The notes under the pieces are model-generated. The model ran no database searches. It was not told where the DNA came from and worked only from the letters and a program-made list of their open reading frames with translations. This document shows, piece by piece, positions 1,611 through 63,728 of a DNA stretch of 64,000 bases. Position 1 is the stretch's first letter. Every line of letters begins with the position of its first letter. Location of the stretch: the NCBI RefSeq assembly GCF_964204645.1, contig NC_134029.1:14286850-14350849 (forward strand), in the 5' to 3' direction. A program made the translations under genes and the position numbers. The DNA comes from Tubulanus polymorphus (lineage: Eukaryota; Animalia; Nemertea).

Positions 1611-1619
1611 CTGGAACAA

Positions 1620-33248: not shown

Positions 33249-33395
33249 ATATATTTACAACATTATTTCAATATTCATATTTGTGTGAGTTAGATTTTTA
33301 AACATTAAAAGTGTTAGTAAAGTGTGATTGAAATAATACATGATATAAATCATTGAACTTCTAAAATCAATTAAAAAAAAAAATTTAGTATTAAA

Positions 33396-36300: not shown

Positions 36301-37434
36301 AATCTAGCATACTGTCCCGAACATAAAACTGTAACTCATGAAGAATTATCAAATTATCAAAAAAGAATTGAACCTGAAAATCATATTCATACAGAAAAGT
36401 TAATGGTAACTCAAGAAGATAAATTTAATTATGTAGAACATTATAGAATGTTAAAGTTGTATTTGAATCAAGGAATGATTATAAAAAAAGTACAAAGATA
36501 TATTTCATTCAGCCAATCTAAGTGGTTAGAAAAATATATAGATTTTAACACCAAACAGAGAACTGAAGCTAAAACTGATTTCGAAAAAGATTTCTTCAAG
36601 TTCATGAATAATGCATTCTATGGTAAGACTTGTGAAAATATTAGAAATAGAAATGATATTGAGTTAGTTAGTAATGGTAAAAGGATAAGGCATTTACAAT
36701 CATATCCTAAGTTCATTGGTAACAGAATATTTGATGAAAATTTAGCTGCAGTTAAGATGAGAAGAACATCAATGAAATTTAATAAACCAATCTATGTTGG
36801 CGCTTCAGTTTTAGAATTATCAAAATTACTAATGTATGAATTCTATTATAATGTATAACAACCACTTTTTGGAGAAAAACATATAGAAATATTATATTTT
36901 GATACTGACAGTTACATATTTAAGATAAAAACTGATAACATAACAGATGATTTAAAAACATTAAAACATCATTTTGATTTTAGTAATTATCCTTAAGATC
37001 ATGAATTGTTTAGCAATGATAATAAAAAAGTTCCTGGTAAATTCAAAGATGAATTAGGTGGTGAAGAAATGATAGAGTTCATAGGTATTAGATCTAAAAT
37101 GTATTCATATAAAACTAAAGAACATGAAGCTAAAAAAATAAAAGGAATAACCAAAAGTGTAGTAGAAAAGAATATTCATTTCAAAGATTACATCAATTGT
37201 ATATTCAATGAAGAAGTTAGAAAACATAAGATGAGATGTTTAAGATCTGAAGATCATGAAATGTTTATTGAAGAAATTGAAAAGATAAGTCTAAACCCAT
37301 TTGATGATAAAAGATATATTCTGGATGATGGAATTCATACAGTTGCTTATGGTTGCAATTTAGATGAATACTTAAAATTTAAAAGAGAGGAAACAAAAGA
37401 GAACGAGATAATGAAAAGAGTTCTAACGTGTTAA
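33396..37434 (+). pseudogene. polB: Protein-primed family B DNA polymerase (N-terminal C2H2 fingers, OTU-like Cys/His region, endonuclease VII-like insert)
   Basis: ExoI IYGDFES; FHNLSGYD; motif A YIDANNLYG; motif B KFMNNAFYGK; motif C YFDTDS (~36895); DHDHLNGKFRGAAHENCN. One frameshift (~33770) and in-frame stops at 34813, 36856, ~36994. Confidence 0.93.
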
Positions 37435-37463
37435 TCAAATTTTAATAAAAATATGTTATTAAA

Positions 37464-37817
37464 ATGGAGAGTAAACAAACACACAGTGAGAACAACAAAT
37501 TATTTCTAGATAGAATAAAAGATATCACAAATGTAAAATCTGTAGATTATAAATTCAAAAAGTTAACAGAATTAACAATTCATAAGAAATATCTAATTAC
37601 AAATATTGATACAGTTACTAATAACTATGGAGATAAATTAGTTATACACTTAGAATATGAAGGATTAAAAGGAAATACACATAAATTCAGAACATATTTA
37701 CCGGATAGATTTCATAGATTATCAAGTGAAGATCTAGAAGAATTATGTTCTGGTGATTTCTATTTCGTATACAAAGGTAAGAATGAAAAAGGGCATCATG
37801 AAATAGATTTCGAATAA
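37464..37817 (+). CDS. Small Maverick protein (117 aa), possibly an OB-fold/ssDNA-binding protein
   Basis: Intact ORF after polB; beta-rich TNNYGDKLVIHL...TYLPDRF pattern; function is a guess. Confidence 0.5.
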   Translation: MESKQTHSENNKLFLDRIKDITNVKSVDYKFKKLTELTIHKKYLITNIDTVTNNYGDKLVIHLEYEGLKGNTHKFRTYLPDRFHRLSSEDLEELCSGDFYFVYKGKNEKGHHEIDFE

Positions 37818-37834
37818 GAAAATATGTAAAATAA

Positions 37835-38588
37835 ATGGTAGAAATAAAAGAATACAGAATATTTGTTGATTCTAGAAAACTTACAAATTATAAATCTCAT
37901 AATTTACTAGTACAATTAGATAGAGAATATAAAAATTGTGTAGATTTAAAATTAGTAAATATAAGTTTATGTAATTCTTTTTATAATATAACGGATAAAA
38001 CTATTGAAGATAATACTTTTTTAATTCATATTGGAAATATAGATAAATGGTTTCATATAATTTTAAAACCAGGATTATATAATTTAGAAACATTAACTCA
38101 AGAAATTAATCGAAGAGCACGGTTGAAAATTAGAAGAGATGATAAATTTTTAATTAGATTTATAAAAAGTGATAGCACAAATAAAATTAAAATAAAGGTA
38201 TATGATGAAAGTCAACATGCATTTATGGTAAAAAAACCATTAGCTAAACTGTTAGGAATTGCACCAGATACTGTTACAGGAAACATAGATGGTAATTCAA
38301 ATACCTTTTACACACTTTTATATTTATTGCAATTTAATTGATCCTACAAAAACATTCGAAGCAACTAAAGATACAATTTGTAATTCTAGTATATTAAATA
38401 TTTTACCATTAAAGAATGTTAAACAATTTGGAACTCAAATAAATTATAATTTAACTGAATGTGATTTTAAACCTTGTATTCCTCAATTTAATAATTTTAA
38501 ATTAGAAATAAGAAATCATAATGGATACTTAATTGATTTGAATAACTTTCCTGTAATTTATGAATTAGTTATAAGATGTAGAGAGTAA
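37835..38588 (+). pseudogene. Minor capsid (penton, single jelly-roll) protein, frameshifted near 38290
   Basis: LKPGLYN; FYIYCNLIDP; SILNILPL; FKLEIRNHNGYLIDLNN.PV.YEL, typical of Maverick minor capsid proteins. Confidence 0.75.
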
Positions 38589-38604
38589 TTTTTTCATTAT
38601 ATAA

Positions 38605-38961
38605 ATGAATATAACTGTTGGGCCGAGCATATGTTTTGGATTTGATTTTAAACGTGAGAAAGAAATGAAATTTAACGTTAATGATGTAATTACACATAAC
38701 AAAAATATTGCATTTTCTAATGAAACAACATTTGAGTATGAAACAACAAAAGATAAAGAAACTTTAAATGTAGAAAAGATTACTAATTTAATTAGAGAAT
38801 CTTTAAGATTTAATGAATTAGATGAAGATTTTATCATCGATGATATTAAAAGAATAATAATTGAAATATATACAAATGAAACTAGTAATGAAATAAATAT
38901 CGAATTAATCATAAATAAGTTAACTAAATATTTTGATGATAGTAATTTTTTTGATAAATAA
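38605..38961 (+). CDS. Hypothetical Maverick protein (118 aa)
   Basis: Intact ORF with TAAATG start in the gene array. Confidence 0.6.
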   Translation: MNITVGPSICFGFDFKREKEMKFNVNDVITHNKNIAFSNETTFEYETTKDKETLNVEKITNLIRESLRFNELDEDFIIDDIKRIIIEIYTNETSNEINIELIINKLTKYFDDSNFFDK

Positions 38962-39697
38962 ATGAGTGATAATAAGTGGATAATAACTGCTGGATTATAT
39001 AATGGCGCATTACTATCAGTCGGAACTGTTGGTTATTCAATGGTATTAAAAAAAGTATTTAAAATGGGAAGTGTTAATGTTGATAGATTTGATATAAATG
39101 ATATTTTAAAATTAACATTTGCAGTTACTTTATCTAATTTAACTATCAGTGTTGCCACTTCTCCGGATTTCTCCGGAATTCCGGATTTAAAAAAAATCCA
39201 ATTTCATTTCCGGATTTTCGGGAGAAGTCAAATAACCACAAAAGAAAACTTCGCGAAAAAAATAAAATCAATTCGGGATTCGACCCTAAACATCAAAACG
39301 TGACGGCTCCGTAGTGGGTTTGAAAAAGCCGTATTGTGCTGCCGCGTAGTGGCAACAACCCCGCAGTACACGATTAAACCATAGAACATAGTTCTATGAT
39401 TAAACCAAGATGACGCGACGATCGAAATCGACTGACGCTTCGTTTGTTTTTTGGCTCTCTGGTTTATATATGCGGTGCCAATCGCTATTTGAAAAAAAGA
39501 TCTATAGGCGGTAATGAAAGTGAGGCCTATAACGCGTATTGCGCCAGAACGCATCTCCTGGCGTTCTAATTTCAAAAATTTTTTTGGGGGAGGGCCCTCA
39601 GACCCCCGACTTATTTTCCGGATTTTTAGCTTCACATAAGTGGCAACTCTGAACTATTGATTATTTAGAAAAACAAAAATATATTCCTCCCATATAA
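38962..39697 (+). pseudogene. Small hydrophobic Maverick protein disrupted by a DNA transposon
   Basis: Removing 39147-39657 restores ...LSNLTIDYLEKQKYIPPI*. Confidence 0.7.
39147..39651. mobile_element. Non-autonomous DNA transposon (hAT-like TIR), 505 bp
   Basis: TIR CAGTGTTGCCACTT...AAGTGGCAACTCTG; 6-bp TSD AACTAT (39141-39146, 39652-39657); GC content jumps against the AT-rich Maverick. Confidence 0.85.
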
Positions 39698-39721
39698 ATG
39701 CGTAATTATTTTACTAAATAA

Positions 39722-40137
39722 ATGGCTTCTGCAATTATAACTATTATAGGATCGGCAATTGTTTAGCATTTACTGGTGGTGGTTATTTATTTAAGCATAT
39801 TGATAAAAATGGTTCATTAACTGAACAAAAAAGACATAACTTAGCATTAGAGAAATACAATAAAGCAGCAGAAGAATATAGAGAAAAAAGACAAAACTAT
39901 ATGGATTACATCAATAAAGAATTATATGATCAGAAGATTTCACATAGAGATTTTCAATCAGTTGATGATGCAATGAGTTAATATAACGCAGTAACAAATA
40001 AAGAAAAATTACATCTACATAAACCTACAATATCAGATTATTATACCCCAAGTAAAGAACAACAGAAATATGAAATAATATGGATTTTAGGTGGAACAGT
40101 TATTGTTATATTTGTAGCATATAAATTTACTAATTAG
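39722..40137 (+). pseudogene. Maverick protein with hydrophobic termini and central coiled coil (not in ORF track; disrupted)
   Basis: MASAIITIIGSAIV / AFTGGGYLFKHIDKNGSLTEQKRHNLALEKYNKA...WILGGTVIVIFVAYKF. Confidence 0.6.
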
Positions 40138-40151
40138 TTTTTTCTAAATAA

Positions 40152-40586
40152 ATGGAAGATAAAGTTGATAGTATTGATATTATTCCTCATGATATCAGTA
40201 AAACTAAATTAAAAATATATTTAGAAATACAAATATTAGAATTTGAAAGTGACTTAACGATAAAAAAGAAAAAATATTTAAAAAGTAAAATTATATATTA
40301 TTTGATTATAAGTGGTTCGATTACAATTAGTTCTGTAATAACATTTCTAGCAATATTCAGTCCATTAACACCTTTAGCTATATCAATTGGTGTATTAGGA
40401 TTAAGTTCAAGTGTTTTAACCGGTATAAGTTCAGAATTAAATATAAAAAGTAATTAAGAAAAAATTAAAACTAATATAAAAGAAATTAATAAATTGAAAA
40501 ATACACTAGATTATATAATAAGTTTAAATGGTCATATAACAGTTGAAGAACAAGATAAATTATTAAAAGAATTAATAAATTATTAA
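40152..40586 (+). pseudogene. Two-TM membrane protein with a premature stop at 40455
   Basis: Two hydrophobic segments; frame continues past TAA to 40586. Confidence 0.55.
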
Positions 40587-40602
40587 TTTTTTAATTATAT
40601 AA

Positions 40603-41927
40603 ATGGCAGATAGTTTTCCAAAAGCCTTCCAATATAATAAATCAATTAAATATAATATTCCTGCAATAGATTTTAATAAAGATATAACATATAGAAATGA
40701 AGTTTTAAATTCATTAATTGATTTATATATTTATGTTACTGAAAGTAATAATTTTCATGTAAAGATGGAAAATATATTTCATGTATATACAATTAATTTC
40801 AAAAATTTAAATGAGGCAAAACAATGGTTATTAAAATCTAATATGAAGTATTGGCAGAACCAATTGAATTTTGCTGTTTATTGCGCAACAACAGGATGTG
40901 GAATTAGTTGGAATGATCATTGAACAAACCAAGTTTACCATTGATGTTATCACTTTTTAGATTTCATACATATTTTCAAATAAGATTAATATTAGATGAA
41001 TTAGAATGTCCTTTACCAGGTTCAGAATATTTTAAAGAATTGAATAATAATATTAATTTTTCTAAGTTTTATAAAATATGTAATGAATTTAATATTAATT
41101 CAAATAAAGATTTTAGAGCAAAAATTGGAACAATGGGTGGATTAGGAATATTATATACTAAAGAATTTGGAAAAATAATGACAAATTCAGATATAAGAAC
41201 ACTAAATTGGAATGAATTACCAAAATATTATAATAATATACAACAACAAAACAATAATGGTTGGGTTAATTTCATTTTAGAAAATAGTGAAGGTTTTACT
41301 AAAGCTGGTATACAAAGAATAAATCAATCTATTAGAACTTATTTGATATGTATTTTAGGTGCGCAAGTTGAAACAAGATCACCAATAATTGGAAATGATA
41401 ACACTTCATTCGATGCGCAGAAACAATTCAAAGTATTATTTGAAGATTCAATTCATAATGATAAAAATAGATCGATTCCGGAAAACATTGTAAGATATCA
41501 AAATTATTTAGATAAATCACATGTAAGACTAAATTATTGTATAGGCCCCAATCTATTAATTATTTCTAATGATTTAGTATTAAAGATGGGAAACATAATT
41601 GGTTATAATAATCTAATTAAAACTGCAACAATAAATAATTCATTTGGATTAAATGATATAAATAAAAAGATTATTACTGCTCCAAAATTAATGGAAGGTG
41701 AAAAAAATAAAAAACATATTCAATCAACAGAAACTAAAACTAAGAATGTTAAATTAAATAATGATTCTAAAATAAAAGATTACAATACATCAGAAAATAT
41801 AAAAACTGATAATATTCAACATGATATAATTAAACTGAATGATGATAATAAATCCCATGAAAATACTAAATTAGCTATAACTTGTATAGGAATTGTAATC
41901 GGAGGAATATTATATTTTAAATTTTAA
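40603..41927 (+). pseudogene. Conserved Maverick protein with C-terminal TM anchor, frameshift at ~40920
   Basis: YWQNQLNFAVYCATTGCGIS; C-terminal LAITCIGIVIGGILYFKF; homolog at 63729-64000 (-). Confidence 0.7.
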
Positions 41928-41942
41928 TTTTTTATTATATAA

Positions 41943-43654
41943 ATGGAAGAAGATATTCCAATGGATACTTTTGGTGACGCCCCCGGTATAAGTGATGAAC
42001 CACAACCTGATTTTAATGAAACTAATATTGATAATGATGATGAATCAGCATATAATACTAATTTAGGTGAAGATGATTCTAGTGGGCCTATATTATATGA
42101 TTATGATGAATTTAAATATGATACTGTAACAAGTGAAATGTTAATAGATTATTTAGAATCCCTCGATAAGATAATAATTAAAACTAGGCCAGATAGAAAA
42201 GATTTAATTAATAGATTAGAAAGAACAGAAAACCCTGAATTGAAAAAACAATTATTATACATAAAACATAGTGTAACAAATACAGTTATTGAAGAATTAT
42301 TATAAAAAAATGTAACATATAACATTGAACCAGAAGATATTTCAGAACAAATTAGAAAAGATGATCCACATTTCATGAATAATTTAGAATTTAAAAATGA
42401 TTCATGGTTTTATAAAGTTGAATTAAATAACGAAACTGTATCAATTCAATTATCTAAAATGGGACAAGAAGATCTGAACCATCCTGAAATGCGAGCAGGA
42501 TCTTCAATTGAACGTTCAAAAGGTGGTAGAGAATTTCTCAGAATTATATGGAATGCAATCGATAGAATAAATGAAGAAGAACCAATTCCTAATATTGATA
42601 TAAATAAATAATCGCCATTTAAAAATCCAAATTTAAATCCTCCTGATGTTGATCCAGAAATGGAATAGTATGGAGATCGATTAGATAAATTAAGATCTTC
42701 AACGCCCGAAACATCGAGAAGAGATATTCAACAAATTGATAATGATTCAAGTCAATTACAATTAGTATTAGAAGAACAAATTGATAGATTAAGTGATACA
42801 GAAGAACTGATGAATAGTATGTTAGATACATCCGGTACTGAAACTGGAATAAATCGAATGCAATCTTTACTAGAAAAAGGATTATTTGATTTAACTGATG
42901 ATGAATTAGAAGCATTTCCTGAACAAACACGTAGAGAAATTAAAGGTATGCAAGAATCAGCTGATAAAATTGCGCATGAAAAAAGTAAAAGAGATATTAA
43001 AATTAGAACTTTAGAAAAAGAATTGACTGATAAAAATAAAGAAATAGAACAACTAAAATTAGATAGAGATAATAAAGTTATTGAAGAAATCGAATTTAAA
43101 AAAAGAAATGCGTATTTAGAAAAAGATGATTTAGAATATAACATAGAATTACAAAAAGAAGAAATTGAATTATTATTAAAATCATATGATTATAATATTA
43201 ATAGATTAAAAGTTATTTTTAAAGATTTGTTGATTAAACCAGATTCTAAAATATCATTGAAAGATAGAATAAAATTATTATTTAAGTTTGAAGGAATCAC
43301 AATTCTTTCAATTCTAACAGCTGTAACTATGGTATTTACAACAATAGGTTTAGCTATATCAAAATCACTGAAATCTACTCCTACTCCAAATAAACCAGAT
43401 AAACCCCCGAATGATAATAATTCTATACAAGATAAAGTTAAAGATGGTTTAAAGAAATTAGCAAAATATTTATGGGAACTATCAAAGAAATCTGCTGCAG
43501 CATTGCCAGGAATTATTGCATCAATTGTTGGTTTCATATTGAAATCTGCAGGAAACATTATTAACTTTGCTGCTGAACATATTTTATTTTTAATTACAGT
43601 TGTAAGTGCAATTATTTTGGGTTAGTAAACATGATATCAAAAAATATCAAATAA
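41943..43654 (+). pseudogene. Large acidic/coiled-coil protein with C-terminal hydrophobic and amphipathic helices (putative membrane-active virion protein)
   Basis: Colinear with 62006-63712 (-); in-frame stops at 42303, 42609, 42667 and a late frameshift. Confidence 0.7.
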
Positions 43655-43694
43655 CCATGATAAAAAATGAATAATTAATTTTTTTGTTAAATAA

Positions 43695-45401
43695 ATGAGT
43701 GGGAGTTATATCAATCCTTCTAAGAATCATAGAATATCTAATGCTATTAAAGCAGAAAGATCACATCATATAATTACTCATAACTCTTCTAATATTAATC
43801 CCGATGAAACTTTATATGTTAGGATTCCTCGATTAACACAAAATACTTTTTATGTTCCAAATAGTATTTATTCATCAGCCGATATAAAAGTAATCGGTAA
43901 TAATAATAATCATGTTGTTGATAATGTTGGGAGATATTTGATTAGAAAATTAACTATAAAGATTGGTCCAGAAACAGTTTTCTCATTAGATGATTATAAT
44001 TTATTTATGCATTATAAAGATTTATGGTTAACTAAAGAAAATAGAAATAATATGATATTTCAAGGAATCCAATCAGAAAACCAAAATAAATTAAGATCAG
44101 AAGCTAATAGCGCAATATTAACTAATGCTGTAGATAAATTGATAAAAAGTATATATGGAAGCAAATATAAAATTCCATTAGACTTTGAATTGATAAATAA
44201 TAATGGACCTTTATATAAATATGTAATTCAAGAAGATATTATATTTGAGATAACATTTGCTCCTGTAAATGAAATTGTAATATCTAGCGTTAATAAAGAT
44301 ATGAGTTATAAATTATCGAATATATGTTTAGAATATGATACAGTAACTGATGAAAATATTGCAAGCATAATTCAAACTCAATACAATCAAGGATTTTCAT
44401 TATTATATGATTATATTGATAAATTTAAAACTGTAACTATTTCAAATGATGAAATGATTAATGAGAATATTAACTTCCCAAGAAGATCTATTAAAGGTAT
44501 ATTAATATTTTTTACCATCGCAACATATACTAATGGCGCAATAAATGTTGATAATTATTATAATCCTGAAATAACAAAAGTAGAAATAACTATCGAAGGA
44601 ATAGCAAATAAAATATTTTGTCAAGGAATGAGAATGATAGATCAGTGGCCAGAAATTAGAAAACATTTTATGAATGAAAAAGTGAAATCATCTGAAAATT
44701 GTAACATTAATCAAATTGATTATTATACCGGTAATAAATATGCATTATGGTTAGATTTTAGAACAACAGAGGATAATAACACAAATAACACTGGTGTCAT
44801 AAACATATACTACAAGAAGTGTTCTAAGTGTGAATTAGATAAATTAGCTTTAACAGAATTTAGTAAGCGTAAGATTAGCAAAGATGGTTTTCAATATTGC
44901 TGCAAAACTTGCACTAAACTATATACCAAACAATATCGAGAAGATAATATAGAACATTATAATTATTATATGGCAGAATATATGAGAGAAAGATATCAAA
45001 CAGATCTTAATTTTAGATTAAAACAATGTTTACGGTCTACATTAACACAATTATTCAACAAAGAAACACATTCAGAAACACTATCTAATTTATTGGGTTG
45101 TTCAGATGAATTTTTCATATCATGGATAATATATCAATTCGATGATAAAATGAATATAGATAATTATGGTGAATACTTTCATATTGATCATGTGTTGCCG
45201 ATTTCTAAATTTAACATGAATGATGAATACAATAAAAAACTTATTTGGAGTTGGAAAAATTTAAGACCTTTAGAAAAGAAGAAAAACATAATTAAATCTA
45301 ATAAACTAGATTTACAGTTATATTTAGATCAACTGGATAAAGCAAAGACATTTGTTGAATTATGGAATTCAACACATAATGAAAAATACGTTGAAGCTTA
45401 A
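43695..45401 (+). CDS. Chimeric ORF: C-terminally truncated major capsid protein fused in-frame to an HNH endonuclease
   Basis: 43695-44778 nearly identical to the MCP at 60738-61985 up to DFRTTEDN; the remainder matches the HNH at 55545-56225 (CSKC..CKTC, HIDHVLP, WKNLRPL). Confidence 0.85.
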   Translation: MSGSYINPSKNHRISNAIKAERSHHIITHNSSNINPDETLYVRIPRLTQNTFYVPNSIYSSADIKVIGNNNNHVVDNVGRYLIRKLTIKIGPETVFSLDDYNLFMHYKDLWLTKENRNNMIFQGIQSENQNKLRSEANSAILTNAVDKLIKSIYGSKYKIPLDFELINNNGPLYKYVIQEDIIFEITFAPVNEIVISSVNKDMSYKLSNICLEYDTVTDENIASIIQTQYNQGFSLLYDYIDKFKTVTISNDEMINENINFPRRSIKGILIFFTIATYTNGAINVDNYYNPEITKVEITIEGIANKIFCQGMRMIDQWPEIRKHFMNEKVKSSENCNINQIDYYTGNKYALWLDFRTTEDNNTNNTGVINIYYKKCSKCELDKLALTEFSKRKISKDGFQYCCKTCTKLYTKQYREDNIEHYNYYMAEYMRERYQTDLNFRLKQCLRSTLTQLFNKETHSETLSNLLGCSDEFFISWIIYQFDDKMNIDNYGEYFHIDHVLPISKFNMNDEYNKKLIWSWKNLRPLEKKKNIIKSNKLDLQLYLDQLDKAKTFVELWNSTHNEKYVEA

Positions 45402-46553
45402 GCGCTTAGAAAACCGGTTACTCTCGATCTATGTCAAACCGCCTGTATGTAATTGTATTAGGTTGTTTACAAAAGCATCTGTCGCACGTTATATTCAGTT
45501 GAATAGGGTGTATCTCATTTGAATATTGATCGAATGTGCTATTTCAGTTGAAAAGGATTAATCAATTATATTACAAAGGAAGGAACATATGTTGCTCAGA
45601 CAGTGTTTAGCTAGTGAATAACTGACAGTTATGAGCGCGCAGCACATAAGCATAGGAACGTATAGGATATTCTCTCTATAAACACAATTTTAGGAGTTTA
45701 CAGTTATAAATGTAAGTACTGTTTTTGTTGTTATTAAGGCGTTGGAAAACGTTAAACATGTAAAACTTATCCTGGTAAGATGCGCCACAAATGGTCATGT
45801 TTAAGTGCTGTAATTAATATTTTACAACTACAACTTCAAGTTAGTTTTATTCTACGTTAGATATTTATCTTTTAGATAACAAAATGAAGGCCATTGAATC
45901 AAGAAAGTGAAGATAGATGGATGTGGAATCAGAAATAATGGATATTTCAACTCATGAGACATGTAGCAGTTTAGCCATACTGTATAGGCTTCCAATGCAT
46001 TACGTTTGTCGGAATGTCAATTGCGTCATTAAGCTGTTGTTAATGACACACAGTGACAGATGTTGTATTGTACTTTATTGATTCCTGCATTCCACGCATA
46101 ACTTGCCGGGCCTCAAACGCCCGGTGAGGAATGTGGAAATCGATAATGATTGCAGAATAAAATATATGTGTTTATGAAATAGTAATTCCACCAGTCGTTT
46201 CTTTGAATTTATTTTCAGTTTTAGGATTTATTATCAAGAATCCGAAATGACTTATCCGGACAGTTATAATTACTGCTCCCATAGATAAACAATAGTAGTG
46301 AGATAATCTAAATCCTAATTTAAATAAAATATAATAAAAAAACAATAACTTCAACTAGCTAGTGAATTCTATTATATTTTTAATACTTTCTTTTCAAAAG
46401 AGAATACTTTATATTTTGAATAGGTTCAAATAGAAATTCTTTAAGTTCAAATAGCTAGTATCAGTAGTCAATACTAGAATTCTTTAACTTTAACTATCTA
46501 GTATCATTTTATAATACTTATAATATTTTTCTTATTAAATTTCTCTAATATAA

Positions 46554-47156
46554 ATGTCAAAGAAATCGAGTAAGAATAGTATTGATATTGAAAAAACATT
46601 AGATGATTTGGGTATTAGTGATAATAAAGATACAGTTGTTTTTAATTCTATTCAAGTTAATAACAATATTGATTATGAATACTACTTATATTGTAAACAC
46701 CATCTAGAATTATTAATTGCTAGTGGTAAATGTAATCAGTTTATCGGGAAAATTTTAACTTATCAAGAACTAGATGCTATGAAACCCGATAAAGTAATAA
46801 AATATTTTAGGATTTATGAAGAAGCTAGATTAGCCCGAATAAATGATTCTATTTCAGATGGTATTATAAAATGTTATTCTAAGTTATGTAACCGGCTAAT
46901 GTCAATTGATGATGAAAATAAATTATATAGTGATTTGAAAACTGACTACTTAGTTATGACTGAATTACAAAAATGGGTTGGTTATGCTTCATTCCAATTA
47001 GGATCGGTTATGACATTAATTTCTACTGGCGTCATAACATTTTCGAATATCAAACCTATAGAATGTAAATCAGGTAAGAACGAAACAGATGTACTACAAC
47101 CAAACGTCGAAACAGAAAATGAATCAGAACAAAAATTAACTAAAATAAATGAGTGA
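46554..47156 (+). CDS. Hypothetical Maverick protein (200 aa)
   Basis: Intact; homolog of 56475-57059. Confidence 0.75.
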   Translation: MSKKSSKNSIDIEKTLDDLGISDNKDTVVFNSIQVNNNIDYEYYLYCKHHLELLIASGKCNQFIGKILTYQELDAMKPDKVIKYFRIYEEARLARINDSISDGIIKCYSKLCNRLMSIDDENKLYSDLKTDYLVMTELQKWVGYASFQLGSVMTLISTGVITFSNIKPIECKSGKNETDVLQPNVETENESEQKLTKINE

Positions 47157-48591
47157 TGGAGTTAAGAAAAAGGCTAGATCCGAGAAACAAATTAAATGGG
47201 CAAGAGAATTAGGTAAAAGATCTTCAGAAATAAAAAAAGCTAAGAAAAAGAAATTAACTGATATAAATGAATCACAGACTTTATCTGATATTGATTCAAA
47301 TAATAATCCATCTAATTCTTCTATTATATTATCTGGTGTAATATATAAATCAAAATTCAAATCTGATGATAAAGATGATTCCAATGATGATAAACCAGAA
47401 AATAAGTCAAATCATAAAGTCATTGAAACTAAATCTAAATTATTATTAATGGATCAAAAGAAGATGAAAAAAGAACAATATTTAAGAGAGTTATATTATA
47501 ACCCAGAAAGTGAAGTATCATATTCTAACGTTTCAGAATTATGGGATAAAATTAAATCTGATAATGAAAATGGTAATGGTGCCGTACGGCACCCACACGG
47601 TGATATAAAATATAGTGAATTAAAATCATGGTTACAAAATCAACCAACATATCAAATTCATAAGAAAATGGATAAAACTTATTTAACAAGAAAAGTTATG
47701 GTTTCATATATCGATCAACAATGGCAAGCAGATTTAATTGACATGAAGAACTTAGAGGAATACAACAAAGGATATTTCTGGATACTGAATGTTATAGACA
47801 TATTCAGTAGATACGCATGGAGTATACCAATCAAAAATAAAACTGGAATAGAACTTACAAATGCTTTTAAATCTATATTTAAAGAAGCTATTCCAGATAA
47901 GTTACAATTTGATGAAGGTAAGGAATTTTATAACAAACATTTTTAAAAACTGATCAAACTTATCTGATAACGATGTAGATTATTTTTCAACACATTCAGA
48001 TGAAAAAAGCATCTATTATAGAAAGATTTAATAAAACATTGAAAACTAGAATGTGGAAATATTTTACTGCTAATGAAACATATAAATATATCGATGTATT
48101 AGATGATTTAGTGAAAAGTTATAATAATTCTAAACATAGTTCTATAAATATGAAACCTATACAAGCTAGAAAAGAAGATAATTCGGAAATAGTTTGGAAT
48201 AATTTATATGGAGCATTTGTCACACATGATTTCGGTGAACCTAAATTTAAAATAGGACAACACGTTAGAATATCTAAATATAGAAAAACATTTTATAAAG
48301 GTTATACCCCTAATTTTACAGAAGAAATATTCAAGATTAGAAAGATAATATTAACTAAACCATTTGTTTATAAATTAGAAGATTTAAAAGATGAAGAAAT
48401 ATTAGGTTATTTCTATGAACAAGAATTATCACTTGTACCAAATCCAGATGAAATAGAATACAAAATAGAAAAAGTATTGAAAACAAAAACTCTTAAAGGA
48501 AAAAAAGTATTCTTTGGTGAAATATAAAGGATATGATGATAAATTTAATGAATGGATTTTATCTAGTAAAATTAAAAGAATAAATGAATAA
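47149..48591 (+). pseudogene. Small basic protein read through into a frameshifted retroviral-like integrase
   Basis: Homologous to 57052-58530; stop lost (GAT CAA vs GAT TAA); frameshifts at ~47945, ~48000, ~48505. Confidence 0.88.
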
Positions 48592-49194
48592 AGATTTATT
48601 TATATTTGAACCGCATAATATGTTAGTTACTGGAGTAACCAATTGTGGTAAAACACATTTCATATTAGATTTGTTAGAAACTATTCATAAGAATCATTTT
48701 GATAATGTAATATTATTCTGTCCTACTTATGAAATGAATAAAACATATAATAGAGATATTTATAAGTTAAAAAAGTTTATTATATTAGATCCTAAAACAG
48801 TAAAAGAAAATTTAGATAATTGTATTAAAATAGCGATTGATACTTATAAAGGATCAAATACATTATTCATTATAGATGATTGCGCTAATTTACATGATTC
48901 AAAAGTGAGAGAAAGTGAGTTATGTTATTTAGCTTTCTCTGGGAGACATTTTGGGATAACAACATGGGTTTTAAATCAAAAATATAATTCAATTGTTAAA
49001 GACAAAGGGAGAATATAAGATTTCTAGTTTTATTCTACAATAAAGATAGAAAATCTATGCAACAATCATTGGAAGAAAATCATATTATACCTACTGAATT
49101 ACATGATGAATATATGAATAAATTAAAAAGTAATAAAGGTTCAAAATTATTACTGAGATTACAATTTCCATATGAATATAAATTTATAAAATAA
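48584..49194 (+). pseudogene. A32/FtsK-like packaging ATPase, frameshifted at ~49005
   Basis: Walker A GVTNCGKT, Walker B FIIDD, SGRH..I...NQ. Confidence 0.88.
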
Positions 49195-49225
49195 CTATTT
49201 ATATATCTATTCTATAAGAGCTTAC

Positions 49226-49633
49226 ACTTTTATATTGAATAATCTGTCAATTTAAATGTTATTCATGTACATGATTATTTTAAGAGTAATAGGGGTAATG
49301 GGCTTTCAGGTTAAAGGTTGAATGGTCGAGTTCATTAAAAACAAATATTAAAAGTAATTTAAAACTGTAATATATTTTCATAACCGTGTGTATTTCAGTT
49401 GAATAATAGAATAATTATTATTATTAAAATATATTTGATTATATGAATTTGTGTATTGTAAATAAATCAATTGGTCGCGGAGCGGAGCGGTAGCGAAGTG
49501 GAGCGACCAATTGATTTAATACAATATGCTTTTTAAATTATTGATATCTTAGAATAAATATTTAGTTGTTTTTTTTTAATGAGCTCGTTCGACCGTTCGA
49601 CCTTTGGCTTGAAAGCCCATTACCCCTATTACT
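49226..49633. repeat. Right TIR of Maverick 1 (fold-back 49284-49633; ~60-bp deletion in the outer arm)
   Basis: Reverse complement of 32786-33248. Confidence 0.95.
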
Positions 49634-51977: not shown

Positions 51978-52085
51978 TGAACGACATCTTGAAATGAAAA
52001 TGAACAAACAAATTCCAAATCAGTGCATAAGGTGTTCTAGAGATAAGGGTACTACCAAGTTATATCAAACCCAGGTCCAGTTCCG

Positions 52086-53781: not shown

Positions 53782-54047
53782 AGTAATAGGGATAATGGGC
53801 TTTCAGATCAAAGGTCGAACGGTCGAGCTCGTAAAAAATGAAAAACATAAAAATAATAACAATTTCTACTTGAATTACTCGCAAAACTCATAAAAATGAA
53901 AAATAAATTCTCACACACTCGAATTTATTTTTCATTTTATAAGTTTCACTCCTAATTCAAGTAGAAATTGTAATTATTTTTATGTTTTTCATTTTTACTC
54001 ACCCGCCCGTTCAACCTTTAACCCGAAAGCCCATTATCCCTATTACT
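53782..54047. repeat. Terminal fold-back of Maverick 2 (266 nt)
   Basis: Arms AGTAATAGGGATAATGGGCTTTC...GAAAGCCCATTATCCCTATTACT with further paired segments up to a TCACACACTC loop. Confidence 0.92.
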
Positions 54048-54127
54048 CTTAAAATATTCACATAAATGAATAACATTTAAATCATTGAACTTCTAAAATC
54101 AATTTTAATAAAAAATATAGTATTAAA

Positions 54128-54400
54128 ATGGAAGCAAATAAGTACTACTGCCCAACATGTAATATCGATATAGATAAATCCCAAAAAGCAAGACACAATA
54201 AAACTAGAACACATTTAGAGAATAAATTGAAACTAGAATATTTACAGTTATATTCAGAACAGTTAACAAAGGGAAAGAAATTTATTGAATTATGGAACAC
54301 TGATCCAAATAATGAACAATACGTTGAGGATACGATGTTTATACTAGAAAATGATTCTATTTTAGCCTATATACATTCAATGTACAGAGCTATAGAATAA
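54128..54400 (+). pseudogene. Chimeric stub: first ~38 codons of polB joined to an HNH C-terminus
   Basis: MEANKYYCPTCN...LKLEY matches 33396; LQLYSEQL...ELWN...NEQYVE matches the HNH ends. Confidence 0.75.
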
Positions 54401-55094
54401 ATCTATAAATTCACAGCTGTTGCAGTTGTTACTATAACGACGAGACATTATGACACGTCATAATCAGAAACGTGTAGAATATTCTAGAAAAGGCGCGCCG
54501 GAACTAGATGACGTGGCATAATCAACGACGTGTTCATTCTAGAAATCGCCCCGGAAATGGACATACGCTGTAATATTGTGCTCAGGATATTCTATCTTTC
54601 GAAACGAAATAAGGAGTTTATAGTATACAATTATAAATCTAAATGTAAGTACTGTTTGTTGTAGTTATTAGGGCTATTAAATATGAAACCTTTAGATATA
54701 TTTAAGCGTATTTAGTATATCTTTTAGATAGTTAGAGTTACCGCTAATATCTTTTAGATTAATAAAAAGTCATACACATCAAGAAGCGATAGAGAAACTC
54801 AAGATACTCTTTCTGCCTGAGGAATCAACAGCAATGGATATCGAACCAATAGAAATTAACACAAGAAACACCAAAAGATCAACGAAGAAACTATATAAGA
54901 ATTTCAAAAACATTCAGACTCCAATGATTAAGTTTAACATTTGTTAATGTAGTTAAATATTTATCAGCAATTGAAAAAATGTTTGTAATTATAAATTGTA
55001 TTTATAGAAATCAAATGATGTATTAGAAGAAATGACTGAACAACTTGTATAATGTATTGTGTAAATCTGATTTGTGAATTTTTATGTTCAGTCG

Positions 55095-55410
55095 TTTCTA
55101 TTATGTTTAACGCATGCGCATTAAGCAAAACCGACCATAAATGGCCGCATGTGACACATGTAACGCATGTGACGAGGGACATGAATGCGTTTGAATTTTC
55201 TACGTTCAGTTGTTTCTATTTTACAGAATTTATAGAATGAATATACAATTATGATTAACACATGTGCATTAAGCAAAACCGGCCATAAATGGCCGCATGT
55301 GACACATGTAGCGCATGTGTTGTTTCTATTTTACAGAATTTATAGAATGAATTTATAATTATGATTAACGCATGCGCATTAAGCAAAACCGGCCATAAAT
55401 GGCCGGCCGC
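55095..55410. repeat. ~110-125-bp tandem repeat (3 units) with small hairpins
   Basis: GCAT(G/T)(C/T)GCATTAAGCAAAACCG(G/A)CCATAAATGGCCG x3. Confidence 0.85.
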
Positions 55411-55544
55411 TTGTATTATTTAGATATCAAGGAATCGAAACAACTTATCAAAAGCAGCGAGGAATGAAAAAGGATGACGTTGGTCGAAGAAATGGAAGAG
55501 GATTATAAAATATTAACCAATTTTAATAAAAATATGTATAATAA

Positions 55545-56225
55545 ATGGAGCCGGAACAATCACAAGCTATAAATATAAACAATAAGAAATGTTCTAAATG
55601 TAAAATAAATAAACAACTCTCGGAATATTATAATTATAAAACTCAGAAAGATGGTAAGCAAAGTTATTGTAAAACTTGTAGTAAACTAAGTGACAAACAA
55701 AATTATAGAAATAATACCGAAACACGCAAAGATAAAAATAAGCAATGGAAAGAAAATCATTTAGAACATATTAAAGTGTATAATAGAAATTATCATAATG
55801 AAAAATATCATACAGATTTTAATTTTAAATTGAAACAATGTTTGAGATCTAAAGTATCAAAATTATTCAGTAAAGATAAACACTCAGAAACATTATCTAA
55901 TTTATTGGGTTGTTCAGATGAATTTCTCAAATCATGGATTATATTTCAATTCGATGATAAAATGAATATAGATAATTACGGGGATTATTACCATATTGAT
56001 CACGTGTTACCAATATCTAAATTTAACATGAACGATGAATACAATAAAAAACTTATTTGGAATTGGAAAAATTTAAGACCTTTAGAAAAGAAAGAAAATC
56101 AAATCAAATCTAATAAAATAGATTTACAGTTATATTTGAATCAACTGGAAAAAGTAAAAAAATTTATTGATTGGTGGAATTCAACACATAATGAACAATA
56201 CGTTGAGTCTTTAATGAGTGGTTAA
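55545..56225 (+). CDS. Zn-binding HNH endonuclease (giant-virus type)
   Basis: CSKC/CKTC; HIDHVLPIS...NWKNLRPL...N..KSNK; intact 226 aa. Confidence 0.82.
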   Translation: MEPEQSQAININNKKCSKCKINKQLSEYYNYKTQKDGKQSYCKTCSKLSDKQNYRNNTETRKDKNKQWKENHLEHIKVYNRNYHNEKYHTDFNFKLKQCLRSKVSKLFSKDKHSETLSNLLGCSDEFLKSWIIFQFDDKMNIDNYGDYYHIDHVLPISKFNMNDEYNKKLIWNWKNLRPLEKKENQIKSNKIDLQLYLNQLEKVKKFIDWWNSTHNEQYVESLMSG

Positions 56226-56474
56226 AGAATAATAGATTTTAAATAAAAAGTATTTAAAAAACAATAACTTCAACTAGCTAGCGAATTCTATTATATTTTT
56301 AATATTTTCTTTTCAAAAAGAGAATACTTTATATTTTGAATAGATCCGAATAGAAATTCTTTAAATTCAAATAGCTAGTATCAGTAGTCAATACTAGAAT
56401 TCTTTAGCTTTAACTATCTAGTATCATTTGAAGAATACTTATAATACTATTCTTATTAAATTTCTCTAATATAA

Positions 56475-57059
56475 ATGTCAAAGAAATCTAATAAGAATAG
56501 TATTGATATTGAAAAAACATTAGATGATTTGGGTATTAGTGATAATAAAGATACAGTTGTTTCTAATTCTATAGATTATGAATACTATTTATATTGTAAG
56601 CATCATCTAGAACTATTGATTGCGAGTGGAAAAACTAAAGAGTTTATTGGTAAAACAATAACTTTTCAAGAATTAGATAATATGAATAAAGAAAAAGTAA
56701 TAAAATATTTTAAGATTTATGAAGAGGCAAGATTATCTAAAATAAATGATTCTATTTCGAATGGTATTGTCAAATGTTATTCAAAATTATGTAACCAGTT
56801 AATACCAATTGATGGTGAAAATAAATTATATAATGATTTGAAAAATGACTATTTAGTTATGACTGAATTACAAAAATGGGTTGGATATGCTTCATTCCAA
56901 TTAGGATCGGTTATGACATTAATTTCTACTGGTGTCATAACATTTTCGAACATCAAACCTATGGAATATAAATCAGGTAAGAACGAAACAGATGTACTAC
57001 AACCAAACAGTGAAACAGAAAATGAATCAGAACAAAAATTAACTAAAATAAATGAGTGA
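56475..57059 (+). CDS. Hypothetical Maverick protein (194 aa)
   Basis: Intact; conserved with 46554-47156. Confidence 0.75.
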   Translation: MSKKSNKNSIDIEKTLDDLGISDNKDTVVSNSIDYEYYLYCKHHLELLIASGKTKEFIGKTITFQELDNMNKEKVIKYFKIYEEARLSKINDSISNGIVKCYSKLCNQLIPIDGENKLYNDLKNDYLVMTELQKWVGYASFQLGSVMTLISTGVITFSNIKPMEYKSGKNETDVLQPNSETENESEQKLTKINE

Positions 57060-57438
57060 TGGAGTTAAGAAAAAGGCTAGATCCGAGAAACAAATTAAAT
57101 GGGCAAGAGAATTAGGTAAAAGATCATCAGAATTAAAAAAAGCTAAGAAAAAGAAATTAACTGATATAAATGAATCACCCGATGATGCCGTACGGCACCC
57201 ACACGGTAGTATTGATTCAAATAATAATCCATCTAATTCTTCTAATGCTGGAAGTAATTATAAATTATATATTACAATTGGATCAGTAACAATTATTATA
57301 TTATCCGGTGTAATATATAAATCAAAATTCAAATCTGACGATAAAGATGATCGGAAACTTAGTTATCCATGTACAGACAATAAACCACCAGAAAATAAAT
57401 CAAATGAAAATAAATCTAAAATATTATTAATGGATTAA
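57052..57438 (+). CDS. Small basic protein with one TM-like segment
   Basis: Lys-rich N-terminus; LYITIGSVTIIILSGVIY. Confidence 0.7.
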   Translation: MSDGVKKKARSEKQIKWARELGKRSSELKKAKKKKLTDINESPDDAVRHPHGSIDSNNNPSNSSNAGSNYKLYITIGSVTIIILSGVIYKSKFKSDDKDDRKLSYPCTDNKPPENKSNENKSKILLMD

Positions 57439-57444
57439 AATAGA

Positions 57445-58530
57445 ATGAAAAAAGAACAATATTTAAGAGATTTATATTATAACCCAGAAAGTGAAGTATC
57501 ATATTCTAACGTTTCAGAATTATGGGATAAAATTAAATCTGATAATGGTGGTATAAAATATAGTGAATTAAAATCATGGTTACAAAATCAACCCACATAT
57601 CAAATTCATAAAAAGATGGATAAAAAATATTTAACAAGAAAAGTAATGGTTTCATATATTGACCAACAATGGCAAGCTGATTTAATTGATATGAAAAACT
57701 TAGAAGAATATAACAAAGGATATTTTTGGATACTAAATGTTATAGACATATTCAGTAGATACGCATGGAGTATCCCGATTAAAAATAAAACTGGTATAGA
57801 AGTTACAAATTCTTTCAAATTAATATTTAAAGAAGCTATCCCAGATAAAATACAATTTGATGAAGGTAAAGAATTTTATAACAAACATTTTAAAAAACTA
57901 TTAACTGATAACGATGTAGAATATTTTTCAACACATTCAGATAAAAAAGCATCTGTTATAGAAAGATTTAATAAAACATTGAAAACTAGAATGTGGAAAT
58001 ATTTCACCGCTAATGAAACATACAAATATATCGATGTGTTAGATGATTTAGTTAAAGGTTATAATAATTCTAAACATAGTTCTATAAATATGAAACCTAT
58101 ACAAGCTAGAAAAGAAGAAAATTCAGAAATAGTTTGGAATAATTTATATGGAGCATTTGTTACACATGATTTTGGAGAACCTAAATTTAAAATAGGACAA
58201 CATGTTAGAATTTCTAAATATCGAAAAACATTTTATAAAGGTTATACTCCAAATTTTACTGAAGAAATATTTAAAATTAAAAAGATAATATTAACTAAAC
58301 CATTTGTTTATAAATTGTTTGATTTAAAAGATGAAGAAATATTAGGTTATTTTTATGAACAAGAATTATCATTAGTACCAAATCCAGATGAAATAGAATA
58401 CAAAATAGAAAAGGTATTAAAAACTAAAACATTACGCGGTAAGAAATATTCTCTGGTGAAATATAAAGGATATGATGATAAATTTAATGAATGGATTTTA
58501 TCTAGTAAAATTAAAAGAATAAATGAATAA
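57445..58530 (+). CDS. Retroviral-like (rve) integrase with C-terminal chromodomain
   Basis: WQADLID, QFDEGKEF, ERFNKTLK (DDE); YKIEKVL...VKYKGYDDKFNEWI; intact 361 aa. Confidence 0.95.
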   Translation: MKKEQYLRDLYYNPESEVSYSNVSELWDKIKSDNGGIKYSELKSWLQNQPTYQIHKKMDKKYLTRKVMVSYIDQQWQADLIDMKNLEEYNKGYFWILNVIDIFSRYAWSIPIKNKTGIEVTNSFKLIFKEAIPDKIQFDEGKEFYNKHFKKLLTDNDVEYFSTHSDKKASVIERFNKTLKTRMWKYFTANETYKYIDVLDDLVKGYNNSKHSSINMKPIQARKEENSEIVWNNLYGAFVTHDFGEPKFKIGQHVRISKYRKTFYKGYTPNFTEEIFKIKKIILTKPFVYKLFDLKDEEILGYFYEQELSLVPNPDEIEYKIEKVLKTKTLRGKKYSLVKYKGYDDKFNEWILSSKIKRINE

Positions 58531-59134
58531 AGATTTATTTATATTTGAACCTCATAATATGTTAGTTACTGGTGTAACCAATTGTGGTAAAACACATTTC
58601 ATATTAGATTTGTTAGAAACTATTTATAAAAATCATTTTGATAATAAAATATTATTCTGCCCAACTTATGAAATGAATAAAACATATAATAGAGATATAG
58701 TTAAGATAAAAAAGTTTATTATATTAGATCCTAAAACAGTAAAAGAAAATTTAGATAATTGTATAAAAATAGCAATTGATACTTATAAAGGATCAAATAC
58801 ATTATTCATTGTAGATGATTGCGCAAATTTACATGATTCTAAAATTAGAGAAAGTGAGTTATGTTATTTAGCTTTCTCTGGTAGACATTTTGGGATAACA
58901 ACTTGGGTTTTAAATCAGAAATATAATTCAATTGTGAAAGATTTTAGAGAGAATATAAGATTTCTAGTTTTATTCTACAACAAAGATAGAAAATCTATGC
59001 AACAATCATTGGAAGAAAATCAAATTATACCTACTGAATTACACGATGAATATATGAATAAATTAAAGAATAATAAAGGTTCAAAATTATTACTGAGATT
59101 ACAATTTCCCTATGAATATAAATTTATAAAATAA
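58523..59134 (+). CDS. A32/FtsK-like genome packaging ATPase
   Basis: GVTNCGKT, FIVDD, SGRHFGI..LNQ; intact 203 aa. Confidence 0.92.
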   Translation: MNKDLFIFEPHNMLVTGVTNCGKTHFILDLLETIYKNHFDNKILFCPTYEMNKTYNRDIVKIKKFIILDPKTVKENLDNCIKIAIDTYKGSNTLFIVDDCANLHDSKIRESELCYLAFSGRHFGITTWVLNQKYNSIVKDFRENIRFLVLFYNKDRKSMQQSLEENQIIPTELHDEYMNKLKNNKGSKLLLRLQFPYEYKFIK

Positions 59135-59164
59135 AATCCTAATTTGGAATATTATAGAAACTAA

Positions 59165-59506
59165 TTTATATATCTATGTACTAGACGTACGAGTAAGAAA
59201 GTAAGATTCTTACCTTTTTACTTTCTTGGCAAGAATCTTGGATTCTTACGTACGTCTAGTCTATAGAAATATGAATTATTAAATGAAATATATAATAATG
59301 AATAAATCATATATTAAAACTATGATTATAATTTATGTTTATAATTTATATTTATAATTTATGTTTATAATTTATATTTATAATTTATATTTATAATTTA
59401 TGTTTATAATTTATGTTTATAATCTATGTTTATAATTTATATTTCTTGGTAAGGATTCTTGGATTCTTACTTTCTTACTCGTACGTCTAGTGCATAGATA
59501 TATAAA
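59165..59506. repeat. 42-bp inverted repeat enclosing a 12-bp tandem array, between convergent genes
   Basis: 59165-59206 pairs with 59465-59506 (1 mismatch); (TTATAATTTAT[G/A])-type array at ~59326-59440. Confidence 0.85.
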
Positions 59507-59540
59507 TAGTTTTATAGATATATAAATAGTTTTATAATGA

Positions 59541-60704
59541 TTATTCTAATTTTGTTTCTAATACATTTATAAAATCATCTTCGTTTATATCAAATTCTCC
59601 ATAAGTCTTTGGTATATTTATTGAGTTTAGTCGAGCCATCATTAATCTATAATCAGTAGGCATATTAATTTTTTCTTTTATTTTTTCAAAGTTTTCATCA
59701 AAATCATAATAATAAAAATCAATATCATATCCAAAATTAATTATCAAATAAGTTGAATCTTTTCTTCTCAAATATAATAATTTATACATTTGTTCAAGAT
59801 TATCGTTTGCATAATCTAAAAATTTATGTAATAACAAATTATAGAATATATCATATTGGTTAATATTATAATCAAAATATTTGATAAATTCTAAAGGGTT
59901 ATTTAACAATGGTAACATACCCACTTTTTTATAAACATTAATTAGATGTAATTTTGATTTATAATGAATAATTTTATCAACAGGTTCAATTTCTTTATTA
60001 CAATAATCACATATTAATTCTTTTTCATTTTCTATGTGCCACTTAGATTTTTTATGTTTAGAAAAATTACTTTTAGAAATATCTAAATTACAAATGTTAC
60101 AATGTTTTTTAGAATCATCAATTATTTCATTATCTGTTATATCATTATCATTAGTTTCAATTGGGTTAACATTATTTATTACATTATCTGTTATATTATC
60201 TATGGTATCATTAGTTTCAATTAGGTTAACATTATCTTTTATATTACTAACTGATATATTATTATCATTATTATTCTTTTCTTTTTCTATATGTTTCTTT
60301 GATTTCTTATGTGATGCCCAATTTTTATATGATATATATTTCTTACATACATCACAATATTTTTGATTATAATTTTTTTTGGATTCAATATCATATGTAG
60401 AGGGTATATTATAAGATGTAGATGCTGTTACATCTTCTATTTTAGTTTCAATATTATTACTATCTTCTATTTTAGTTTCAATATTATCTTCTATTTTATA
60501 TTCAATATCATTCTTATCTTCTATTTTAGTTTCAATATTACTTTCTATTTTAGTTTCAATATTATCTTTTATTTTACTTATTCTATATTTGAATTGATTA
60601 AAGTAATCTCCAAAATACTTACTGTATTCATCATAAGGTAATATATAATATATATCTGATATCATTTCACTTGGAGTTTGTATTTCATATATTCCACCTT
60701 CCAT
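59541..60704 (-). CDS. Multi-zinc-finger (C2H2/U1-like) protein with NIETKIE repeats
   Basis: CDVC..HKKSKKH, CNIC..HKKSKWH, CDYC..HYKSKLH; intact 387 aa. Confidence 0.75.
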   Translation of the reverse strand: MEGGIYEIQTPSEMISDIYYILPYDEYSKYFGDYFNQFKYRISKIKDNIETKIESNIETKIEDKNDIEYKIEDNIETKIEDSNNIETKIEDVTASTSYNIPSTYDIESKKNYNQKYCDVCKKYISYKNWASHKKSKKHIEKEKNNNDNNISVSNIKDNVNLIETNDTIDNITDNVINNVNPIETNDNDITDNEIIDDSKKHCNICNLDISKSNFSKHKKSKWHIENEKELICDYCNKEIEPVDKIIHYKSKLHLINVYKKVGMLPLLNNPLEFIKYFDYNINQYDIFYNLLLHKFLDYANDNLEQMYKLLYLRRKDSTYLIINFGYDIDFYYYDFDENFEKIKEKINMPTDYRLMMARLNSINIPKTYGEFDINEDDFINVLETKLE

Positions 60705-60737
60705 TTAATATAATAAATTTTTATTAAAGTTAAAATT

Positions 60738-61985: not shown

Positions 61986-62005
61986 TTATTTAACAAAAAA
62001 ATTAA

Positions 62006-63712: not shown

Positions 63713-63728
63713 TTACAAAATAAAAAAA

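What the first reader, a model, noticed from the sequence alone, without database searches (positions are those of the whole stretch)
47578..47601. Identical GC-rich palindromic 22-mer inserted in-frame in different genes of the two copies
Seen: TGCCGTACGGCACCCACACGGT occurs at 47580-47601, in the integrase N-terminus of copy 1 (within the perfect palindrome GGTGCCGTACGGCACC), and at 57186-57207, in the small basic ORF of copy 2. Each is absent from the orthologous site of the other copy. Both encode AVRHPHG and preserve frame, in otherwise very AT-rich DNA. Established analogues: yeast mitochondrial GC clusters and Rickettsia palindromic elements. Inference: a mobile micro-element spreading within Maverick genomes, possibly via the HNH or endonuclease VII activities or polymerase template switching.
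Basis: partly seen in the sequence, partly recalled or inferred. Interest (0 to 1): 0.72.

Follow-up and report, generated by a model that had tools for sequence, protein, structure and literature searches.

The report
Tiny GC hairpin copied within Mavericks
The same 22-base GC-rich hairpin sits, in frame, in two different genes of two related virus-like Maverick elements made of AT-rich DNA; it was likely copied once between two spots 300 bases apart, and whether it is a spreading mini-element like the GC clusters of yeast mitochondria is untested.

Summary
The 22-mer occurs exactly twice in 64 kb: in an integrase loop of Maverick copy 1 and in the small basic ORF of copy 2, and is missing at each orthologous site. 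It is 68% GC in 25% GC DNA, so it was written into one site from another at least once.

A spreading element is not shown. There are only two copies. They share strand and codon phase and lie about 300 bp apart in element coordinates (0.6% under free insertion). Only site 1 has a direct repeat (GGTG), and neither empty site is clean. No related copy was found in viral, metagenome or bacterial collections, in 25 related loci, or in 415 homologous proteins.

In favour of a wider class: close integrase relatives are polymorphic for 8-15-residue in-frame inserts, many in the same loop. My hairpin-coding test on them was not significant.

Best reading (0.55): a GC-cluster-like module copied locally by template switching, then sorted by deletion or recombination among tens of family copies. 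Dispersed mobile family: 0.33. The host assembly was unavailable, so the decisive count is open.

The parts
47580..47601 (+). 22-mer, site 1, in the integrase N-terminal loop of Maverick copy 1; reads AVRHPHG
47578..47593 (.). 16-bp perfect palindrome; predicted 6-bp stem with GTAC loop, about -6 kcal/mol as single-stranded DNA
47566..47598 (+). 33 nt present in copy 1 and absent in copy 2: 12 nt of triplet-like sequence plus a 21-nt unit flanked by the GGTG direct repeat (47578-81, 47599-602)
57547..57552 (+). Orthologous empty site 1 in copy 2. It reads GGT GGT (Gly-Gly), a pair not seen in the loop tally of close relatives, so it may be a footprint (inferred)
57186..57207 (+). 22-mer, site 2, in the small basic ORF of copy 2; reads AVRHPHG
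57171..57219 (.). Site 2 context: TGAATCA arm (57171-77), 35-nt variable segment holding the 22-mer, TGATTCA arm (57213-19)
47268..47298 (.). Orthologous empty site 2 in copy 1: the same arms around an unrelated 17-nt segment; the whole folds as a hairpin (-6.7 kcal/mol)
47149..47946 (+). Copy 1 ORF: small basic ORF fused in frame to the integrase N-terminal part (integrase ATG at 47464); the integrase is broken near 47950
57052..57438 (+). Copy 2 small basic ORF, 128 aa; no Pfam or PHROG family, no homologue at E<=0.001
57445..58530 (+). Copy 2 retroviral-type (rve) integrase with chromodomain, 361 aa; site 1 maps to the loop between predicted helices 23-33 and 39-47
32786..49633 (+). Maverick/Polinton copy 1: terminal inverted repeats, 5-bp target duplication GCAGT, broken protein-primed-type PolB, rve integrase, A32-type ATPase
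53972..64000 (.). Maverick copy 2: partial, different gene order, runs off the window; 84-92% identical to copy 1 in the three aligned blocks
55545..56225 (+). Endonuclease VII/HNH-like ORF (phrog_1035, E 1e-14); a related domain ends the ORF 43695-45401 of copy 1

Best explanation
A 21-22-base GC-rich hairpin module lies in frame at two non-homologous sites 300 bp apart in this Maverick family, and was likely copied once from one site to the other by a short template switch during replication or repair, after which deletion or recombination likely left each element with one copy. Shown: the two copies, their reciprocal absence, the GGTG direct repeat at site 1, the replaced hairpin at site 2, a family of tens of copies in the host, and that site 1 is a loop where relatives often carry extra residues. 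Inferred: (1) the module first entered the insertion-tolerant integrase loop; (2) protein-primed strand-displacement replication (established for pPolB elements, recalled) exposes single strands where the module and the site 2 inverted repeat fold, stall the polymerase and let it copy about 30 nt from the neighbouring site, replacing the site 2 loop; (3) copy 2 then lost site 1, by slippage between the GGTG repeats or by a crossover between the sites; (4) only whole-codon events in tolerant loops survive. It works like a yeast GC cluster, but a dispersed family is not shown.
For: Two copies only, in about 27 kb of element DNA, and no other piece of the 22-mer of 9 nt or more in the window. Same strand, same phase, 300 bp apart: 3.7% for distance alone and 0.6% jointly under free insertion. 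Site 2 is a replacement between inverted arms, as a templated patch would be. Flank likeness extends a little beyond the 22-mer on both sides. Gly-Gly at empty site 1 is absent from the 30 loops tallied in relatives. Read depth over site 1 is about 400 against about 5-17 in flanking host DNA, so there are many recombination partners. 23 of 36 internal inserts in close integrases, copy 1's included, fall in this loop.
Against: It needs two steps (copy, then loss or crossover) and does not explain where the GC-rich module first came from. The 0.6% figure ignores that few sites tolerate inserts and that target preference can follow codon phase, so it overstates the case. Close relatives gain and lose 8-15-residue inserts at several integrase sites while 93-100% identical, which suggests a recurrent process rather than a one-off. 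Neither element in the window carries both sites.
Confidence: 0.55

Rival explanations
1. A true dispersed micro-element family (GC-cluster type) of about 21 nt inserts independently at many tolerant sites in this host's Mavericks; the window shows two of its insertions.
For: Foreign composition and codons. A 4-nt direct repeat around a 21-nt unit at site 1 looks like a target duplication. Relatives carry polymorphic in-frame inserts: 7 distinct inserts absent from a relative of at least 90% identity. Those inserts are poor in AT-codon residues (0.20 against 0.39 in the protein body; distant relatives 0.30 against 0.34). Endonuclease VII-like genes are on board. Unchecked scan notes describe such elements in AT-rich giant viruses and virophages (leads only).
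Against: One copy per element, where known GC clusters have 5-25 identical copies per genome (PMC4478555, passages). No target duplication at site 2. No match in 415 homologous proteins in any of six frames or in 25 related viral loci (best 12-16 of 22). Hairpin-coding test on relatives' inserts: 4 of 29 at p<=0.05, one being copy 1 itself, Fisher p=0.20; 1 of 7 on polymorphic inserts. Peptide words shared between different sites: 3 observed against 4.0 expected.
Confidence: 0.33
2. Both sites captured the 22-mer independently as a repair patch from a third source outside the window, such as an abundant host repeat or another virus.
For: The composition is foreign to the element, and no donor lies in the window.
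Against: Two captures with identical 22-nt limits, strand and phase are unlikely without element-like ends. Exact matches in public collections are all in GC-rich, unrelated DNA (3 of 3; 15 of 15).
Confidence: 0.07
3. Assembly or sequencing artefact that wrote the same short string twice.
For: The family is high-copy and hard to assemble, and no read-level row confirms the 22-mer (truncated tables).
Against: Both copies keep frame and phase, have different junctions, and site 1 falls in the loop where unrelated natural inserts accumulate.
Confidence: 0.05

Closest known systems
GC clusters of Saccharomyces mitochondrial DNA (GC42; optional in-frame clusters of var1). PMC4478555 and PMC8811140, passages read
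   Same: Short, gene-less, GC-rich palindrome in AT-rich DNA; present/absent between related genomes; in-frame in a coding region; short flanking direct repeat (site 1); altered bases beside the insert, like the co-conversion tracts described for GC42.
   Different: About half the length; sits in a nuclear-integrated virus-like element, not an organelle; only two copies seen; no constant target duplication; palindrome covers only the 5' part.
Rickettsia palindromic elements (PMC10969869, passage read)
   Same: Palindromic insert translated as part of unrelated proteins.
   Different: RPEs are about 150 bp and occur dozens of times per genome; this is 21-22 bp, twice.
Short templated insertions from microhomology-mediated template switching (MMBIR; PMC8421209, search listing and start of abstract only)
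   Same: A short stretch copied to a non-homologous site by template switching.
   Different: Donor and recipient are seen in different element copies, so sorting is also needed; described there for cellular genomes.
Double-hairpin elements of Allomyces mitochondria (Paquin et al. 2000, seen only as cited in PMC7218506)
   Same: Optional short hairpin sequence taken as mobile.
   Different: A second hairpin here is only 3 bp in the predicted fold; the original paper was not read.

Membership tests
Mobile GC cluster (yeast type) | GC-rich short sequence in an AT-rich genome | tested here: met
   68% against 25% GC
Mobile GC cluster (yeast type) | Palindromic, hairpin-forming | tested here: met
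   12-16 bp perfect palindrome; stem about -6 kcal/mol, z from -1.1 to -2.2 in 60-nt context; the bare 22-mer folds no better than its shuffles
Mobile GC cluster (yeast type) | Present/absent at orthologous sites | tested here: met
   Reciprocal at both sites
Mobile GC cluster (yeast type) | Constant short direct repeat (target duplication) at all insertions | tested here: not met
   GGTG repeat at site 1; only a single T at site 2, whose empty allele is a different sequence
Mobile GC cluster (yeast type) | Many dispersed copies per genome | tested here: inconclusive
   One per element in the window; host genome not held; the other family copies could not be counted
Mobile GC cluster (yeast type) | Stems conserved and loops variable across copies | not testable with these tools
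   Only two identical copies
Rickettsia palindromic element | About 150 bp, dozens of copies | tested here: not met
   22 bp, 2 copies
Rickettsia palindromic element | In-frame fusion into unrelated ORFs | tested here: met
   Frame kept in both ORFs; translation itself not shown
Maverick/Polinton (the host element) | pPolB, rve integrase, packaging ATPase | tested here: met
   PF03175, PF00665, PF04665; integrase fold matches intasome chains
Maverick/Polinton (the host element) | Long terminal inverted repeats, AGT ends, 5-6 bp target duplication (feature list recalled) | tested here: met
   Copy 1: 32786-49633, duplication GCAGT
Maverick/Polinton (the host element) | Double jelly-roll capsid protein | tested here: inconclusive
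   Candidate 60738-61985 has no Pfam or PHROG hit; not folded

The most novel reading that the evidence does not exclude
Animal Mavericks of this clade carry their own parasites: codon-sized (21-45 nt) GC-rich hairpin modules that copy themselves into tolerant loops of viral proteins, turn over faster than the proteins diverge, and extend the GC-cluster lifestyle from mitochondria to endogenous Polintoviruses.
Probability: 0.33. Interest if true: 0.65.

Novelty: new variant of a known kind. Interest (0 to 1): 0.4.

Why it matters
If the module is mobile, it would be among the shortest selfish DNA units known and would live inside an element that encodes its own polymerase, integrase and endonuclease VII-like nuclease. 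A host with tens of copies would then let gain and loss be counted on a tree, which bears on the unsettled question of how GC clusters move (PMC4478555 leaves the mechanism open). If it is one local template switch, it is an ordinary though neat record of how Maverick proteins gain loop peptides.

Tried and rejected
Collection scans: 22-mer in viral contigs, 0 hits. 21-mer in metagenomes, 1 hit, and in bacterial genomes, 2 hits; all 64-71% GC with no similarity to the window beyond the word. 16-mer core in viral contigs, 15 hits, all 51-77% GC. Element terminus in viral contigs, 0 hits. All taken as chance or blank.

An 8-nt match between the 22-mer's 3' end and the terminal repeat looked like a donor; 1067 of 2000 shuffled 22-mers do as well, so it was rejected. 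A degenerate palindrome search found only the two sites above chance level.

Related loci: single-protein queries and one alignment found none; two alignments gave 3 and 22 distant loci. No dispersed hairpin family was seen in the 20 loci under 40% GC; the 5 loci at 40% or more were only counted.

The small ORF has no homologue at E<=0.001; Atlas hits at 0.90-0.92 are weak. None of 10 window proteins is in the clustered collection. No integrase match in the phage collection. No RNA holder listed.

Back-translation hairpin tests were not significant; the second test was chosen after seeing the first. Sequence identity of the two 22-mers does not date the event: 22 identical bases are expected 16% of the time at the copies' 8% divergence.

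Literature searches listed no paper on such inserts in Mavericks/Polintons, judged from listings; most subscription journals are not in the library and no supplements were read.

Full report
Observation. The 22-mer is at 47580-47601 and 57186-57207, identical, on the + strand. These are the only matches in 64 kb with up to 3 mismatches; no shuffle gives any. It is 68% GC in element DNA of 25% GC. Three of its codons (GCC, CGG, CAC) occur 2, 2 and 5 times among 2996 codons of nine element ORFs. Both copies read AVRHPHG in the same phase.

Setting. Copy 1 is a Maverick at 32786-49633 with long terminal inverted repeats and a 5-bp duplication. It encodes a pPolB-type polymerase, an rve integrase and an A32-type ATPase; several genes are broken. 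Copy 2 starts near 53972, has a different gene order and runs off the window. The three shared blocks are 92%, 89% and 84% identical. Reads of another sample of the same coded organism lie about 400 deep over site 1 against about 5-17 over the flanking host DNA, so the family has tens of copies (85% likeness). That the host is an animal is inferred from the named integrase relatives (Lineus, Branchiostoma, Glandiceps). No host assembly was held.

Site 1. Copy 1 has 33 extra bases: 12 of triplet-like sequence and a 21-base unit bounded by GGTG on both sides. The model of the copy 2 integrase (mean pLDDT 79.9) puts the site in a five-residue loop between two N-terminal helices, and the fold matches retroviral intasome chains. 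The loop tolerates inserts: 30 of 284 integrases examined have 5 or more extra residues there, and 23 of 36 internal inserts in the close clade, copy 1's included, fall in it (these are relatives, not independent events). Copy 2 reads Gly-Gly at the empty site, a pair absent from the 30 loops tallied in relatives. This may be a footprint of loss, which is an inference.

Site 2. Copy 2 has 35 bases and copy 1 has 17 unrelated bases between the same TGAATCA and TGATTCA arms. The copy 1 allele folds as a hairpin itself. This is a replacement with no target duplication.

Search for more copies. None in viral contigs. Exact matches in metagenomes and bacterial genomes (3 of 3) and to a 16-base core in viral contigs (15 of 15) lie in GC-rich unrelated DNA. 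None of 415 homologous integrases and polymerases carries a peptide from any of the six frames. Twenty-five distant Maverick-like loci (23 contigs) match at best 12-16 of 22 bases; the 20 below 40% GC show no dispersed hairpin family, and the other 5 were only counted. An 8-base match to the terminal repeat is chance. None of these data include the host's other copies, so the blank says little about the family itself.

Is there a wider class? Integrases within one 90% cluster differ by 8-15-residue in-frame inserts at several sites, including the site 1 loop; 7 distinct inserts are absent from a relative of 93-100% identity. Close-clade inserts are richer in GC-codon residues than the protein body (0.30 against 0.15) and poorer in AT-codon residues (0.20 against 0.39). 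Inserts of distant relatives are nearly as rich in GC-codon residues (0.27), though less depleted in AT-codon residues (0.30); near against far p=0.008, not independent. A test of whether the peptides could encode unusually long hairpins was not significant: 4 of 29 at p<=0.05, one being copy 1 itself, Fisher p=0.20, and 1 of 7 in a second, post hoc set. Peptide words shared between different sites were no more than chance (3 against 4.0). The DNA of these relatives could not be fetched. Earlier scan notes report similar modules in AT-rich giant viruses and virophages; they are unchecked leads, raised my prior for the class, and mean the idea is not new within this scan.

Mechanism. At least one copying event to a non-homologous site is unavoidable, even if an ancestor held both sites. 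The two copies share strand and phase and lie 300 bp apart, which free insertion would give 0.6% of the time. Tolerant sites are few, so the true contrast is smaller, but it favours a local event. I propose a short template switch on displaced single strands, helped by the hairpin and the site 2 inverted repeat, followed by loss at site 1 through the GGTG repeat or a crossover between the sites (0.55). A dispersed family (0.33) remains open. The endonuclease VII-like ORFs are real, but no evidence ties them to the insert.

Comparison. It works like a yeast GC cluster: GC-rich, palindromic, optional, in frame, with altered flanks (PMC4478555 and PMC8811140, passages read). It fails the constant-duplication test and the copy-number test is open, so I do not file it as a member. 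It is far shorter and rarer than Rickettsia palindromic elements (PMC10969869, passage read). Passages of two 2026 bioRxiv preprints on Polinton-like viruses (10.64898/2026.07.28.741278; 10.64898/2026.10.13.758929) deal with terminal palindromes and mosaicism, not intragenic inserts; their supplements were closed. PMC7218506 (passages) was read for the double-hairpin citation. Eight searches listed nothing on such inserts in Mavericks.

Verdict. A real and tidy observation whose mobile-element reading is unproven. Interest 0.40; 0.65 if the host's other copies show dispersed sites.

Noticed in passing
window 32786-33251 and 49223-49633: Each terminal repeat of copy 1 holds an inner inverted copy of its first ~110 bp and a GC-rich hairpin (12-bp arms, near 32959-33008 and 49468-49517), so each end could fold back on itself.
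   Followed up: partly
window 39147-39651: 505-bp gene-less insert with 14-bp terminal inverted repeats (one mismatch) and a 6-bp duplication AACTAT, interrupting ORF 38962-39303: MITE-like.
   Followed up: partly
window 43695-45401: The capsid-candidate ORF of copy 1 is fused to an endonuclease VII-like domain, which in copy 2 is a separate ORF (55545-56225).
   Followed up: no
window 49650-53780: Low-copy host stretch between the elements, with an OTU-like ORF (51195-51977) and a DUF6570 ORF (52146-52676); resembles Helitron-associated genes (recalled).
   Followed up: no
window 45400-46319: Foreign-looking stretch inside copy 1; 45967-46274 is 74% like 49995-50289 outside the element.
   Followed up: no
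window 53781-54082: Two short terminal-repeat-like pieces face each other before copy 2; read depth there is high (about 1470), so these ends may form an abundant small element.
   Followed up: no
window 381-5219: 2.4-kb tandem duplication, 99.7% identical.
   Followed up: no
proteins P0024, P0126-P0132, P0031, P0133: An insert just after the first catalytic motif is shared by integrases 82% identical yet absent from relatives 94-98% identical, which suggests exchange or repeated loss.
   Followed up: partly
proteins P0039, P0292, P0293: Close Maverick integrase and PolB relatives are filed under Bartonella sp. assemblies, possibly host contamination.
   Followed up: no
L029:14257-14487: 58-bp tandem array with a GC-rich hairpin at a contig end of a PolB-bearing viral contig.
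   Followed up: no
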